Origin: Okamejei kenojei
Taxonomy: Eukaryota
NCBI GenBank assembly: GCA_035221665.1
Contig: CM069159.1
Span: 28,892,001 to 28,956,000, forward strand
DNA length: 64,000 nucleotides
Reading direction: 5' to 3'
Every line of letters begins with the position of its first letter. Position 1 is the first letter of the stretch. This document shows, one piece after another, positions 41,001-47,000 of the stretch. The position numbers are program-made.

Positions 41001-44000
41001 TGAAAGCACTGGGATACACTATACATGGTGCTCAATGATTTTAATGCTTTTAAAGTCTTTATTGCTTGCATTTTGCCTGGCTGTATTTAGACTATTTTTA
41101 TCCATTCTATATTACAGAGCGGGATTGCACTTATTTATTAATAAAGTGAAGGAGGAAAATGGTGGCACACTCTCAGGTTTATCTGTGGAGGAGCTGGTGG
41201 GACGAGTCTCTTATTATATTCACCAGGGCACCCATCCAGAAATGGTGAGTATGATTTAGCTGCATTCCTAATCACATCGCAAAATCTAACACTGCACAAT
41301 GCAAGAATATAATAATGTATTACAGTTGTCATCTAACAAGATAGTTGCAAAATATAGTTTTAATTATTTTTGTTGCAGCTACTCCTTTTCCCTTTGAGCT
41401 CATTGATTAGTGAATCTACTGAATCACCCTTGCTTGTGACTTGTTGATCTCACCTGCAGTTGATGTGTAAATACAGCCACACTATACATTGATGTCTCTT
41501 GAACTTTTCCTCTGCTGCAGAATATAATTATCCATCATTAATAATAGAAACGGTATTTAAAACAGCCTGGGTGTGATTAGGCTACCATGCTGGTTGGATT
41601 AATGTTGGATGCATTCATTTAGAGATCCACTCATTTAGAGATCCACTCATTCAGATCCACTCATTTAGAGATAATTATAGCACCAATATAATGCTCGCTC
41701 TATCGTGTTTCTCAGATTTGCAGTGTTGTAATATTAAAATACTATGGATGAAATTTTGTAGAATAAAAATTACTTTAATTTTATGACCCAGGCATTATGT
41801 AATAATTTAACATTTTGATTTGAATGTTTTTAAACTGGTTAATTTTGAGGATATTAATTCTATGGCTGCCAGATTGCATTCATATTTTCAGTTTTTTAAT
41901 AAATATTCAATGCATACAAAGCTGTTAGTTTTGAAACTGCACTCAGCAGCAAAGAGGGATTGACATTCTAATGAAGGCACAAGAGACAGATGCTGGAATC
42001 TGCTGCAAAAAACAACAGCATTTGGAGGAACTTAGTACGCCAGACAGCATCTGTGAAGGGCAATGGCACAAATTAGCAACCTACTATTTGATAGTTAAAA
42101 CTACAGATTTATTGCTGGTTTATTGCACTTTAATTGCTAGGAGCAGTTAAATTGAAATGTATTTTATTCGAAACAGAAATTCATAGTTAATTTATAGCGC
42201 TTGTCTAAAGATCTCTGATAAACATAAACTCTAACAACTTGCCGTTAATAACTTTCAATTAAACTGCTAGAAATTGATGCCTTCATTGTGCAGTTACCAT
42301 AATTGGGCCAGCATAATTGTTTTGGGATGCATTTAAAATTGTCAACAGAATTAACTTTTGCATTTTGTATATCTTTCTTTCAGACATACGCATCTCGAAT
42401 CGATCCATTATCATTTGCGCCCATGAGCCACGAAAATCCTTTCTTCCCCAGTCACCACGCTCCGCATTCTGACCAGTCACGAACAGTGCCGGATGGGTTC
42501 AGCGGTCTTATTCCAGCGAAGGCATCTGCTTCAGGGTTTGAGTTACCTCTCGGAGATTTACTGGAATTGGAAGGCTGTTTTGATGAAATGTAAAACCACA
42601 GAAACAAATTCACAATCTAGATGTATTGTTGTAAGTTTTTGTAAGTATTGTTGTAAGTTGCATGTGATGTTAATCGCTCAAATTATCAAAGCAAAAACGA
42701 CAGACTTTTTCCACCTGCACTCAGATAATGTTGTGAATTAAGTGAAAGTAGAGTGTTGATTCGATCTCAAACATGGTCCTGATATCCTCCGAATTATAAT
42801 TGAACCATTCCTTTCTGTAAAGCCTGTTCTGTGGACTGTTCGTACAGAAGTTGCATCCTTGGTTCCACCAAACCTTGATTTGGTATTGATTTATTTTTGT
42901 CGCATGGGCTAAGATACAGTAAACAACGGGTTTTTACCCAATGTTTCAAAAACGATTAAAAATCCAGAACTACTTTTTAATGTGAGAGATAATGATCATT
43001 GGGCAATGTAGAAACAAGGATCTGCTGATGCTGTTTTATATTAAAGACAAAATGCTGGAGTAACTGGGTTACGCCATGTCACTGGGAAACACCGGGCAAG
43101 CTGGCCCTCATAGAATGTGAAAGAACCATTTCACAGATTACAGCCAAACACATGATAAGATAGTGATGATGCTATTAGTTAGGTGGGGTCGTGGGTGTGG
43201 ATTAATCAGATGATCAGTGATTTTTGTTTCATTTTTGATAGTTGAGATAAAATTAGAGCCACTTGCAAGAGGTGCAAAATATAACCACCTATTTTTGGCT
43301 AACTCTCATTACAAGTCACTCTGGCAACCACTCAAAGGAGCTCTAATTACTACCCTTGTTTGTATTTTGCATGCAGCTTCCTGTAAATTTAAATGTGTAC
43401 GGTTCTTTTTCATTATGAATATATTTTCAATAATTTGCTGGTGGATTCTGTTCCCATTTGTGCAGGAAATCAGTTCTGCCTGTGGGTTTTTGCAAGTTGC
43501 TTACAGTCCAGCTCCCACACACATGGCAATGCGAATGATGCAATCACTCTCCACCCCCTCCAATTGTATCATTTTTATCTCTTCTTGCTGCAAATCCAAG
43601 AAATGATTCCATCTCAAACCATACCATCTTCTCAAGGGAAGATCATGTTTGATGCTTTATGGTAGTGTTTTAATGGAGAAAGATCTGGGATTGTAAGCAT
43701 TTTCAAACACAGATGAACAGATTTCACTGCAACTATATGAGCAAGTACATTTCCAAAGGGTTTGGTGGAATCAAGGCTGCTATTTCCCTGTGGATAGCCA
43801 AACACTGGGTTTATTTTCTGCAGCTCAGAATGTGGAACTGCCATGCAGGTCAAGCAGTATCTGTAGAAAAATAAATAACGTTAATGTTTCTGGTTGAAGA
43901 CTTTTCATCAGAACTCACTGACGCAGGAGTATTCTGGTGATCTGATGGAAAATATCAACTTTATTTTGGGTAACTTTGGTTTATCGACTGCATATGAATA

Positions 44001-47000
44001 CAAATATTTCCACATCTGACATTTTACAAACTGTTCTAAAATGTTTTAATTATCCAGCATTCCAACATAAGAATCATTGTGGTACAATGCCAACTGCAAA
44101 TGTTGAAGATATAAACTTCAAGTAAAACTCCAGACCTTCAAGGTATTCACCAATATGAATTAAAATCAAAGATAAGATCCCTGCTTCCGTGCCCCTTCAT
44201 GGTACTATATAAATTCCTACACATTCAGCCATCGTGTGAAAATTCTGATTAATGCTGCAAACACAATCTATCATTAAGATGGCAGAAATGGGAGAGGTTT
44301 GGCACAAAGTCTTAGGGCGATGGCAAAAAATGTTCTATCCTTTCTCGTTGAAAAGAGGAGTAACTCATTGATACAGATTTATTATTGTCACGTGGTACCG
44401 AGAGAGAGTAAAAAGATTAATGTGCTATCCAGTCAAATTATACTGTCCATGAGTACAATCAAGTTACACATGAGGGACTCTTGAGCAAGAGACTGGGGAT
44501 TGGAGCTGGTGACATAATGTTCATTGCTCCTTTTAGGATTTTGGGGTGAGGATTTGTTCACGTTCTCCAACTTCAAGTTTTGTTTACATTTCACAAAAAC
44601 TTCCACTTTTAGAAAACATAAAGTTGACCAATAACAATATACATGAAGAAACATCATGTCAAAATTCTCTCTTGCTTTGGAATGATTCCACGAGGGAGAT
44701 GGATATGAGATGTAGGTCTGACATCTATTCAAACATCTAAACCTTGAAACTAACTTGTTTTGTGAAATTTAATCAACATTCCTGTGATTGTTCTTGGGGT
44801 GGAGATAGATGTGGGTGGGAGAGCGGAAGCGTTGAGATCTGTAGTGGACCAGGAGATGGTGGCCTGAGGGTTCAGCTGGGATGGAAGGCAAGCACCAGCT
44901 CAAGAACTTCTTAGTCCTTGTTCCTCTCTAGTGGAGGAACCAGTTCCCACGATGGCCTTATCGAGGGGAGGAAGTCCTCCTGCACTACGCGCCCTGTCCT
45001 CCAGCTCAGCCGGCGGCGCTGCAGACGAGGTCCCCAAGGACAGTGAGCTGCAGATTGACACAAAAATGCTGGAGTACCTCAGCGGGTTAGGCAGTATCTG
45101 GAGAGAAGGAATGGGTGACGTTACGGGTCGCGACCCTTCTTCGGACCAGAGTGTTCTTGTTCCACGGGGGATGCGGTCGTCCTGCACCAGGTCCTCCAGG
45201 CGCTGCGGATGCGGCCGTCCTGCACCATGTCCAGGTCCTCCAGGCCAGTGTGCGGCGCTGCGGATGCGGTCCTCCTGCACCATGTCCTAGTCCTCCAGGC
45301 CAGTGTGCGGCGCTGCGGATGCGGTCCTCCTGCACCATGTCCTGGACCTCAGGCCAGTGTGCGGCGCTGCGGATGCGGCCCTCCTGCACCATCTCCTGGT
45401 CCTCCAGGCCAGTGTGCGGCGCTGCGGATGCGGTCCTCCGGCACCATGTTCTGGATCTCAGGCCAGCGGGTGGCGCTGCGGATGCGGTCCTCCTGCACCA
45501 TGTCCTGGTCCTCCAGGCCAGTGTGCGGCGCTGCGGATGCGGTCCTCCTGCACCATGTCCTGGTCCTCCAGGCCAGCGGGTGGCGCTGCGGCGCGGGTTG
45601 CCCTGCACGGCTGAGGTTCAGTCGGCGGCCGACACTCGGCGTGAGGGTCCGCGTTTTCCCGTCGTCCGGCGGCAAGGCCGCAGCTGCGGACCGCGGCGAA
45701 GGCGTGATGCCGGGGCTGGACCCGGACCCGGACCAGGCCCGGCGGCTGAGCCAGGCGCCGCTGGTGCTGCAGAGAAAGTGGCTGGGCCTCGGGCTGCTTC
45801 TGCTGGCCTGCCTCTTGCTCCAACTGCTGCTCAACATCTGGTTGCTATGCGCCTGGGTGCTGCTGCTGTTGCTAGGGGGCTGGCTCGGGTCACAGCTGGT
45901 GCTCAGTCCCTCCAGCCTGGTGCATCTGGAGAGGTTCCTCAGCCTGGAGCCCTGGCCCATCCAACCCAACTCCCGGCAGCGCCTAGCCCTGGAGGTGGAG
46001 GGCACCATCAGTAAGATCATCAGGGACTTTGTCAGCTGCTGGTACCAGACAGTGAGTCAGGAGCCAGAGTTTGTAGAGGAGGTGCAGGCTGCCATGCGTG
46101 CCATGGCACTGGAACTGCAGAAGAGGATGGAGGGGGTGGACAGGAAAGCGCTGGCACAGAATGTGCTCCTGCTCTCCGGCTGCCACCTGGAGGTGTACAT
46201 GAGGGCAAAGAGGGCAACCTGTGAGAGGACCGCCCGCCAAGATGCTCACTCCACGTGGAAGACGTATTGCAAACTGTGCCAGCCTCACATTGCCTTGCAG
46301 AGCCCGGCAACTGAAGCGAATTACGCACGTGGCATTGTTGATTTGCTGCTGCATGTACTGGTGCCCTTTCCCAACCTAGAAACACGGACTGGAAGGTTTG
46401 TCGTGAGGGAGCTGATCATGTGCAATGTGCTTCTGCCCCTTATAAGAAAAATGTCAGACCCAGATTGGATAAATGGTATAATAATAGAAATATTCACAAA
46501 GTCCAGCAAAAAGACTGTTGATGTGATGGAGGAGCCACTGCCTTTGGAGGTACCAACTTCTCTACTCTTGAAACCCCAAAAAGAGACAATTGATGAAAGA
46601 TTACCATCTCCGAAAGTTACCGATTCTCTCGGTAATGATGTTGTTGATAGTTTGGAACGTAATATGGAGGAGACTAGTGCATCCGAAGATGGGATTGGGA
46701 TTAAATCAAATGATAAAGTTGATAAATCTTCGGAAAATATAAGCTGTCGCTCTGATTACCAAAGACCGGATAAATTAAACCTTTTCTATTCATGTGAGGA
46801 ATTTGAACCGGAATCTCCCCTTTCTGCTATGAGAAAAGATTCCACTGAATCTTTAATATTGTTGATGACTGATGAACTGGCTGTGGACAGGTTGTCTCCA
46901 ACAGAATTAACTAATGTTTCAGATGCAGCAGAAGATGCAAGCAGTGACGAACTAGTCATTGGAGAATCCACACTTTTGGATGCAGATGCTATCTTGCCCA

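What the first reader, a model, noticed from the sequence alone, without database searches (positions are those of the whole stretch)
41118..45100. TTC3-family gene that ends without its RING-H2 domain
Seen: after the LSGLS exon (41118-41244) the frame enters 42384-42593 and stops at ...LEGCFDEM*. I found no C-x2-C...C-x-H-x2-H-x2-C...C-x2-C pattern in the roughly 2.5 kb before the SNX19 CpG region. Known: TTC3, DZIP3 and RNF214 carry a RING-H2 shortly after this motif, and it provides their E3 ligase activity. Inference: the frame stays intact over 31 exons, so this may be a maintained, catalytically dead adaptor or decoy of TTC3 rather than a pseudogene.
Basis: partly seen in the sequence, partly recalled or inferred. 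Interest (0 to 1): 0.65.

Follow-up and report, generated by a model that had tools for sequence, protein, structure and literature searches.

The report
RING-less TTC3-family gene of skates
A skate gene related to the ubiquitin ligase TTC3 really ends without its ligase (RING) domain, and sharks and rays keep the same ending with an invariant 16-residue tail, so it is a maintained non-catalytic relative that public annotations list only as "uncharacterized".

Summary
Exon 41118-41244 encodes the second half of Pfam TTC3_9th. It splices in frame into 42384-42593, which ends ...LEGCFDEM and TAA. No RING pattern or RING-profile match lies between there and the next gene.

This is not a local accident. 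RefSeq proteins of two skates end the same way at 94% and 90% identity. A group of 16 cartilaginous-fish proteins (17 with a stingray fragment found separately) has no RING in any member. By contrast, 102 of 104 named tetrapod TTC3 have one. In 14 of 14 elasmobranch species the protein stops at the same residue, after an invariant tail LPLGD[LI]LE[LM]EG.FD.

The group also lacks the TTC3 winged-helix domain. It keeps the TPRs, the Cys/His-rich TTC3_DZIP3 domain, the coiled-coil domain and TTC3_9th. On trees it forms one long-stemmed group beside all vertebrate TTC3.

My reading is a maintained RING-less "pseudo-E3" scaffold whose conserved C-terminal peptide is a docking motif. That mechanism is inferred, not shown.

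I could not settle whether it is an old paralogue or the cartilaginous-fish TTC3 itself, because the tool that names representative proteins was switched off. The proteins are already in databases, but my literature searches found no description of them. Interest is moderate.

The parts
766..42593 (+). The part of the TTC3-family gene held by the window: about 30 coding exons for residues ~215-1559 of the Amblyraja orthologue. The 5' end lies upstream of the window.
   Evidence: tblastn of P0001 gives 30 segments, all on the + strand and in order, at 55-100% identity.
18492..18617 (+). Exon for TTC3_DZIP3 domain, profile positions 12-51.
   Evidence: Pfam PF19179, 42.6 bits against cut-off 26.9.
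19182..19283 (+). Exon for TTC3_DZIP3 domain, profile positions 52-85.
   Evidence: Pfam PF19179, 40.9 bits.
19683..19784 (+). Stretch holding the exon for TTC3_DZIP3 domain, profile positions 84-112. The exact acceptor was not fixed.
   Evidence: Pfam PF19179, 31.3 bits. No AG was found within 40 nt of the tblastn start, so the true exon start lies inside the match.
38341..39056 (+). Large, mostly low-conservation exon. Its end encodes the first part of TTC3_9th. Donor AA|GTAAGT.
   Evidence: tblastn residues 1210-1448 at 91.6% identity. Donor read. Pfam on the orthologue places TTC3_9th at residues 1432-1483.
41118..41244 (+). 'LSGLS' exon: second half of the TTC3_9th helical domain.
   Evidence: PF24905, E 2.4e-9. 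95% identical to P0001 residues 1448-1490.
42384..42593 (+). Last coding exon: 69 codons plus TAA. No Pfam family.
   Evidence: 94% and 90% identical to the ends of two skate RefSeq proteins.
42543..42590 (+). Codons of the invariant C-terminal motif LPLGDLLELEGCFDEM.
   Evidence: The core LPLGD[LI]LE[LM]EG.FD is present in 15 of 15 tails (window plus 14 species), always 2 residues from the end.
42594..44164 (+). Probable 3' UTR zone, with candidate poly(A) signals at 42955, 43040, 43870 and 44159.
   Evidence: Motif positions only. No transcript data.
45707..47401 (+). Start of the next gene on the same strand (PXA-domain sorting nexin, SNX19-like). It bounds the space in which a RING exon could lie.
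   Evidence: Pfam PXA, E 1.7e-43, on 45695-47401. ATG read. The CpG-rich stretch starts at about 45000.

Best explanation
The window holds the 3' two-thirds and the true end of an intact gene for a RING-less member of the TTC3 family. The gene is conserved in cartilaginous fishes.

Compared with TTC3, the protein keeps:
- the N-terminal TPR region;
- a second TPR plus the Cys/His-rich TTC3_DZIP3 domain;
- the long coiled-coil 'TTC3 helical' domain;
- the small TTC3_9th helical domain.

It lacks the winged-helix domain and the C-terminal RING-H2. It therefore cannot recruit an E2 in the way TTC3 does.

In place of the linker plus RING it has about 76 residues. These end in an invariant acidic-hydrophobic peptide, LPLGD[LI]LE[LM]EG.FD.x-COOH.

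Shown: the family assignment, the absence of a RING in the DNA and in all relatives, and conservation of the stop position and the tail.

Inferred: the protein works as a non-catalytic scaffold or regulator (a 'pseudo-E3'). It would still bind TTC3-type partners through the retained domains and use the terminal peptide as a docking site for another protein.

Inferred, and unsettled: it arose as an old duplicate of TTC3 that bony vertebrates lost.
For: Reading of the end.

Family assignment, from window exons searched one by one:
- PF24905 on 41119-41244.
- PF19179 on three exons, each above cut-off.

No RING in the DNA: 0 regex matches in 41245-45700, and no RING-profile hit better than E 2.2 there.

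Relatives:
- One search found 2 skate RefSeq proteins that end identically.
- One search listed 16 cartilaginous-fish proteins (E = 0) without any RING Pfam domain. The next hits were tetrapod TTC3 at E 5e-81.
- RING by profile: 0 of 17 in the group, 102 of 104 named tetrapod TTC3, and 75 of 79 other family members of at least 1400 aa.

Conserved stop and tail:
- 14 of 14 elasmobranch species stop at the same residue.
- The core motif is in 15 of 15 tails, window included.
- 0 of 104 TTC3 carry a tail-like motif in their last 250 residues.

Uneven conservation along the protein: about 0.97 in the TPR and zinc-domain blocks against about 0.56 in linkers.

Domain layout:
- The group has TPR_12, TTC3_DZIP3_dom, TTC3 helical and TTC3_9th, with no wHTH and no RING.
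- TTC3 has all of these.
- 7 invariant and 1 near-invariant Cys/His of the TTC3_DZIP3 domain are kept across 57 family members, the group included.

Distinct lineage:
- In the representative search the group's members score 370 and 327 bits, and the next protein 184 bits at 48% identity.
- Trees give the group 100% support and a long stem (0.87-0.99), sister to vertebrate TTC3.
Against: - No transcript or protein data were available. All relatives are computer-predicted RefSeq or UniProt models, which could share one systematic error.
- The chimaera model (P0016) stops early in the coiled coil, so the tail is shown only for sharks and rays.
- The docking-motif idea rests on conservation and position alone, and no partner is known.
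- The Cys/His-rich TTC3_DZIP3 domain has no solved-structure match. An activity of its own cannot be excluded.
- Origin is open. I could not name the organisms of three RING-bearing representatives (P0124, P0128, P0132) that branch at the base of vertebrate TTC3. I therefore cannot show that a skate also has a normal TTC3.
- dN/dS could not be computed, because no orthologous coding DNA was at hand.
Confidence: 0.6

Rival explanations
1. It is not an extra paralogue. It is the cartilaginous-fish orthologue of TTC3 itself, which lost its RING and winged-helix domains, diverged quickly and sits in a different neighbourhood. Function would still be RING-less.
For: On both trees the group is the sister of all vertebrate TTC3. 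That is where a cartilaginous-fish orthologue would also fall. No named shark or ray TTC3 with a RING appeared among the 120 proteins listed.
Against: - The stem branch is very long (0.87-0.99 changes per site), while branches inside the group are short (0.02-0.3). For an orthologue that needs an extreme burst in a short interval.
- Three RING-bearing representatives (P0124, P0128, P0132) with full TTC3 architecture branch at the base of vertebrate TTC3, outside the two big bony-vertebrate groups. That is where a true shark TTC3 would sit, but their organisms are unknown.
- The neighbour is a PXA-domain SNX19-like gene. From memory, human TTC3 lies by DYRK1A/VPS26C on chromosome 21, and SNX19 lies in an 11q24 block paralogous to 21q. 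That fits an old duplicate.
- One search scored only the 7998 candidates sharing most words, so absence from its list is weak evidence.
Confidence: 0.25
2. The protein is RING-less but still part of a ligase. It pairs through its coiled coil with a RING-bearing relative (TTC3 or DZIP3) and tunes or redirects that ligase, as RING-poor partners do in other E3 pairs.
For: The coiled-coil 'TTC3 helical' domain and TTC3_9th are retained. The family's substrate-side domains are conserved.
Against: The helical domain is only weakly TTC3-like (27.2 bits against cut-off 27; TTC3 itself scores 257-339 bits). No pairing test was done. It is unknown whether a RING-bearing partner exists in these species.
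Confidence: 0.15
3. The RING exists but was missed. It lies in an unannotated alternative 3' exon, or was dropped by a local mis-assembly.
For: A GT lies at 42590, overlapping the last codon and the stop. All relatives are predicted models.
Against: - 0 RING regex or profile matches before the next gene, and none of note on the + strand after it (best is 49982-50092, E 0.15).
- No N run lies near.
- 14 independent assemblies give the same stop, and the residues just before it are the most conserved of the exon. That is not expected of a read-through or alternative end.
Confidence: 0.03
4. It is a decaying pseudogene that happens to keep an open frame.
For: Loss of the catalytic domain is often a first step of decay.
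Against: Open frames of 1486-2063 residues are kept in 15 elasmobranch models, and a 1441-residue model in a chimaera. Conservation is strongly uneven and domain-wise. The terminal motif is invariant. In the window, 28 of 30 exon matches have no stop, and the other two run into introns.
Confidence: 0.02

Closest known systems
TTC3 (E3 ubiquitin-protein ligase TTC3, vertebrates)
   Same: Best non-group hits (E 5e-81, about 36% identity locally). Same order of TPR, TTC3_DZIP3_dom, TTC3 helical domain and TTC3_9th. Shared ...N.G.TLSGLS... motif. Sister position on the trees.
   Different: No RING-H2: 0 of 17 against 102 of 104. No wHTH_TTC3. No LLPEDFP tail after the RING position. It has its own invariant tail, absent from 104 of 104 TTC3. 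The helical domain is only weakly alike. The gene neighbour is different (human map recalled).
DZIP3 (hRUL138)
   Same: Shares PF19179. According to an Atlas cluster named DZIP3, it also shares PF24525 and PF24905.
   Different: More distant on the trees. The likely DZIP3-type representative P0208 falls outside the TTC3-plus-group clade, and carries a wHTH and a RING. The name of P0208 was not verified.
RING-less members of RING E3 families and 'pseudo-E3' or pseudoenzyme paralogues (general concept; recalled, not from a call)
   Same: A catalytic-domain loss with the substrate-side domains retained and under selection.
   Different: No such member has been described for the TTC3 family in the papers I could search. 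Here the lost RING is replaced by a conserved terminal peptide.
RNF214
   Different: Not tested here. No RNF214 sequence was obtained, and it lacks PF19179 as far as I recall, so it could not appear.

Membership tests
TTC3/DZIP3 family | TTC3_DZIP3 domain (PF19179) with its conserved Cys/His set | tested here: met
   Three window exons each score above cut-off (42.6, 40.9 and 31.3 bits against 26.9). Orthologue P0001 scores 142 bits. 7 invariant and 1 near-invariant Cys/His over 57 members.
TTC3/DZIP3 family | TTC3_9th helical domain (PF24905) near the C-terminus | tested here: met
   Window exon 41119-41244: 37.3 bits against 27. P0001: 43.6 bits.
TTC3/DZIP3 family | TPR repeats N-terminal to the TTC3_DZIP3 domain | tested here: inconclusive
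   TPR_12 scores 24.3 bits, below its cut-off of 30.1, in P0001. The AF2 model of the stingray fragment shows four TPR-like helices, and the weak fold matches are to TPR proteins (E about 0.03).
TTC3 proper | TTC3 helical (coiled-coil) domain PF24525 | tested here: inconclusive
   27.2 and 30.0 bits against cut-off 27 in P0001 and P0002. TTC3 scores 257-339 bits.
TTC3 proper | Winged helix-turn-helix domain PF24812 | tested here: not met
   No hit in P0001, P0002 or P0008. Present in 5 of 5 TTC3-type proteins scanned: P0017, P0024, P0123, P0124, P0128.
TTC3 proper / RING-type E3 ligases | C-terminal RING-H2 finger (E2-binding module) | tested here: not met
   0 regex and 0 profile matches in the window between the last exon and the next gene. 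0 of 17 group proteins. No RING Pfam in P0001, P0002 or P0008.
TTC3 proper | Orthology: same chromosomal neighbourhood, one-to-one with TTC3 of other vertebrates | not testable with these tools
   No eukaryotic genome collection was available, and names of representative proteins were unavailable. Only the downstream PXA-domain neighbour is seen.
RING-type E3 ligases | Ubiquitin-ligase activity | not testable with these tools
   Needs a biochemical assay.

The most novel reading that the evidence does not exclude
The gene is a fourth, ancient (early-vertebrate) duplicate of the TTC3/DZIP3 line. It was lost in bony vertebrates and kept only in cartilaginous fishes, for several hundred million years, as a pseudo-E3. 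Its ligase module was replaced by an invariant C-terminal docking peptide. Through that peptide it would couple TTC3-type substrates or complexes (Akt or ribosome-quality-control pathways in mammals) to a different effector, or block them.
Probability: 0.3. Interest if true: 0.55.

Novelty: new variant of a known kind. Interest (0 to 1): 0.4.

Why it matters
TTC3 is studied as a ligase of the Down-syndrome region. It has been linked to Akt turnover (recalled) and to translation control after failed ribosome quality control (passages of PMC11880988).

A natural relative that has kept every substrate-side domain but lost the RING separates the scaffold functions of the family from the catalytic ones. 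Its invariant terminal peptide gives a direct handle for finding a partner, for example by peptide pull-down.

For genome annotation, about 16 'uncharacterized protein LOC...' entries and one 'golgin subfamily B member 1-like' entry can be named as one family. The missing RING should not be 'corrected' as an assembly error.

Tried and rejected
1. Is the tail a remnant of the TTC3 post-RING tail (..LLPEDFP.L..)? A position matrix from 40 unique TTC3-family 12-mers scores the group's tail at -7.2. About 42-54% of shuffles did as well in the 12 of 14 species where the tail motif was the best 12-mer, and 72% and 92% in P0005 and P0004. Rejected.

2. Does the tail dock on the protein's own TPR regions? 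One complex prediction was run with P0001 residues 205-345 and 575-835 plus the tail 1491-1559. The result was 'no answer'. It counts neither for nor against.

3. Fold of the TPR plus TTC3_DZIP3 region. The AF2 model of P0121 has pLDDT 81.4. Foldseek against the PDB gave 0 matches at E <= 0.001. The weak matches (E about 0.03) are TPR and 14-3-3 helices only, with nothing for the Cys-rich part.

4. Naming the organisms of representatives P0123-P0132. The listing of cluster members answered that its database is switched off. This leaves the paralogue-or-orthologue question open.

5. ESM Atlas. It returned only TTC3 and DZIP3 clusters, with taxa mostly 'not recorded', plus a weak lead that PF24905 also occurs in 'RBM44 (fragment)' clusters (score 0.76).

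6. P0145 and P0168 (RING-less, about 1200 aa) as possible bony-vertebrate counterparts. They are closer to TTC3 (about 45% identity) than to the group (34%), so they are not orthologues of the group.

7. The 'shorter' homologue search gave only a stingray fragment of the group (P0121) and a mussel TTC3 (P0122).

8. Single-exon queries reach at most 36 bits against TTC3. I therefore used P0121, not a window exon, for the one representative search.

9. Literature. (search listings only) turned up no paper on a RING-less TTC3 relative or on TTC3 in cartilaginous fishes. Many 'TTC3' word-start hits were TTC39B or TTC37. Supplements were not consulted.

Window sequence was searched exon by exon, and the joined-model search was left out. 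Full-length searches used the public RefSeq protein P0001.

11. The window is not taken for human, since its nearest proteins are skate proteins at 90-94% identity. The N run at 3572-3706 was left as it is.

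
Full report
**What is at the coordinates**

- After the acceptor tattacAG, the exon 41118-41244 gives AGLHLFINKVKEENGGTLSGLSVEELVGRVSYYIHQGTHPEM. Base 41118 completes a Lys codon begun in the previous exon, whose donor is AA|GTAAGT at 39057.
- The donor is GTGAGT at 41245.
- After tttcAG, the exon 42384-42593 continues in phase for 69 codons and ends LEGCFDEM, then TAA.
- The first exon alone matches Pfam TTC3_9th above its curated cut-off (37.3 bits against 27, profile positions 21-54 of 60).
- The last exon matches no Pfam family.

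The window is not human. Its nearest proteins are skate proteins at 90-94% identity. Window sequence was searched exon by exon, and the search with a joined model was left out. The only N run (3572-3706) is far away and was left untouched.

**Is a RING hidden downstream?**

No.
- One full and three half RING-H2 patterns gave 0 matches in the six frames of 41245-45700.
- The patterns worked on an artificial control. Elsewhere in the window they gave 0 full and 16 half matches.
- I built a RING profile from the RINGs of 188 family proteins. It finds 102 of 104 named TTC3 and 0 of 17 proteins of the group described below.
- Against all 4289 six-frame pieces of the window, nothing in 41245-45700 scored better than E 2.2.
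- The three largest open frames of the intergenic stretch have no Pfam family.
- Candidate poly(A) signals lie at 42955, 43040, 43870 and 44159.
- The CpG-rich stretch starts near 45000. The next gene, a PXA-domain sorting nexin, starts at 45707.

**The same end in other species**

The last exon, searched alone against longer proteins, found two RefSeq proteins:
- 'uncharacterized protein LOC116991350' of Amblyraja radiata (P0001, 1559 aa, 94% identity);
- LOC144608645 of Rhinoraja longicauda (P0002, 1565 aa, 90% identity).

Both end ...LEGCFDEM or ...LEGCFDEL.

tblastn of P0001 on the window gives 30 ordered segments on the + strand for residues 215-1559. The window therefore holds the gene from about residue 215 to the end.

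A search with P0001 over its whole length listed 16 cartilaginous-fish proteins at E = 0. These are two skates, sawfish, manta (two isoforms), electric ray, nine sharks and the elephant shark. None has a RING Pfam domain. The next hits are tetrapod TTC3 at E 5e-81. A 17th member, the 296-residue stingray fragment P0121, came from a separate search.

In 14 of 14 elasmobranch species the protein stops at the same residue. I dropped the second manta isoform from this count, though it has the same tail. The old elephant-shark model P0016 ends early inside the coiled coil, so it says nothing about the end.

The core LPLGD[LI]LE[LM]EG.FD is present in 15 of 15 tails, the window's included. It is always followed by two residues, the last of them hydrophobic. 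None of 104 TTC3 has anything like it in its last 250 residues.

**Maintained, not decaying**

Over the 14 species, conservation is strongly uneven. It is about 0.94-0.97 in the TPR blocks, 0.84-0.95 in the TTC3_DZIP3 domain, 0.56-0.7 in the acidic and Ser/Pro-rich linkers, and invariant again in the last 16 residues. This is the pattern of purifying selection on domains. dN/dS itself could not be computed, because no orthologous coding DNA was available.

**What is kept and what is lost**

TTC3 proteins (P0017, P0024, P0124, P0128) read TPR - TPR - TTC3_DZIP3_dom - wHTH_TTC3 - TTC3 helical - TTC3_9th - RING. The RING begins 53-75 residues after TTC3_9th.

The group reads TPR_12 (sub-threshold) - TTC3_DZIP3_dom (142 bits) - TTC3 helical (just at cut-off) - TTC3_9th, followed by 76 residues to the end. 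There is no wHTH and no RING.

Three window exons each hit TTC3_DZIP3_dom on their own. Over 57 family members, seven Cys/His of this domain are invariant and an eighth nearly so, which suggests two zinc sites.

An AlphaFold model of the stingray fragment P0121 is confident (pLDDT 81, over 90 through the domain). The PDB holds no fold match for the Cys-rich part.

**Place in the family**

One exhaustive search of 1.84 billion representatives with P0121 gave 277 family members at E <= 0.001. The group's own representatives score 370 and 327 bits. The next protein scores 184 bits at 48% identity. There is thus a clear gap and no intermediate, for instance bony-fish, counterpart.

A FastTree of 130 rows and an IQ-TREE (quick, mixture model) of 46 rows both make the group one clade. 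Support is 100 and the stem is long (0.87-0.99). The clade is sister to all vertebrate TTC3 (98 and 93).

The RING and the LLPEDFP tail occur in vertebrate and in more distant family members; one named mussel TTC3 (P0122) lies among the latter. The group therefore lost them.

**Paralogue or orthologue: not settled**

Three RING-bearing representatives with full TTC3 architecture (P0124, P0128, P0132) branch at the base of vertebrate TTC3. They lie outside the two large groups that hold the named tetrapods and what are presumably ray-finned fishes. They are candidates for true shark TTC3.

From memory, not from a call: human TTC3 lies beside VPS26C and DYRK1A on 21q22. SNX19 lies in the 11q24 block that is paralogous to 21q (ETS1/FLI1 with ERG/ETS2, KCNJ1/5 with KCNJ15/6, APLP2 with APP). 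A TTC3 duplicate beside SNX19 fits an early-vertebrate duplication followed by loss in bony vertebrates. I put this at about 0.65-0.7, against 0.25 for 'the shark TTC3 itself'.

**How it most likely works**

Without a RING the protein cannot bind an E2 as TTC3 does. That follows from established knowledge of RING E3 ligases.

Everything on the substrate or scaffold side is kept and constrained. A new, invariant, acidic-hydrophobic peptide sits at the very C-terminus, with 4-6 acidic and 0 basic residues in the last 17.

The peptice fits several short-motif patterns. The definitions are recalled, so these are leads only:
- a clathrin-box-like L-hydrophobic-x-hydrophobic-[DE] (14 of 15);
- LxxLL (14 of 15);
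- a C-terminal [DE]-x-hydrophobic ending of the PDZ class III type (15 of 15);
- an LIR-like ending (12 of 15).

My best reading is a non-catalytic scaffold or regulator that uses this peptide to dock a partner. It might do so in competition or cooperation with RING-bearing relatives. This part is inference.

Two specific ideas were tested and did not hold or gave no verdict:
- Homology of the tail to the TTC3 LLPEDFP tail was rejected.
- Docking of the tail on the protein's own TPR regions gave no verdict.

**Novelty**

The proteins exist as predicted entries. Most are called 'uncharacterized protein', one 'golgin subfamily B member 1-like' and one 'TTC3-like'.

Six literature searches (listings only) found no description of a RING-less TTC3 relative or of TTC3 in cartilaginous fishes. 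I read passages of one review for TTC3's known roles (PMC11880988). I saw no supplements.

I rate it a new variant of a known kind, of moderate interest.

Noticed in passing
window 26385-26423 (+), intron between exons 24536-24580 and 26558-26608: The piece YCFHRFHRHCISS matches the centre of the family RING profile (C-x-H-x-F-H-x2-C-I). It scores 14.8 bits, E 0.0033 over 4289 six-frame pieces, and is hit by 100 of 188 TTC3 C-terminal parts in tblastn. There is no CxxC on either side, a stop follows 5 codons later, it is not repeated in the window, and it lies out of order for a RING exon. Whether it is chance or a relic is open.
   Followed up: partly
window 45199-45591: 7.2 copies of a 55-bp GC-rich unit (90% matches) inside the CpG-rich stretch just upstream of the PXA-domain (SNX19-like) first exon.
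   Followed up: no
orthologues P0001, P0002, P0008 (region between the window exons at about 19.8 kb and 30.9 kb): Besides the RING, the group also lacks the TTC3 winged helix-turn-helix domain (PF24812). The stretch is a short Lys-rich linker instead.
   Followed up: partly
window 18492-19784 (three exons); alignment A1: The TTC3_DZIP3 domain has 7 invariant and 1 near-invariant Cys/His over 57 family members, and a confident predicted fold with no PDB match. It is probably an uncharacterised zinc-binding module.
   Followed up: partly
window 39640-39948 (-) and 21644-21865 (-): Intronic open frames share a ...FYRCT(V/I)ES(M/I)LT.C... stretch. They look like fragments of one transposable-element family. 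Short pieces of the intergenic stretch also recur at 31.5, 48.4 and 53.5 kb.
   Followed up: no
Atlas result for P0001 residues 1425-1559: The only cluster returned for the C-terminal part is 'RBM44 protein (fragment)', with PF24905 in 95% of members (score 0.76, a lead only). The TTC3_9th module may occur outside the TTC3/DZIP3 family.
   Followed up: no
window 766-2912 (N-terminal TPR exons); alignment A1 consensus: By eye, the group's N-terminal TPR differs from the family consensus (GN...NRA...KGHYR) at several positions that in other TPR proteins line the peptide groove. This was not quantified.
   Followed up: no
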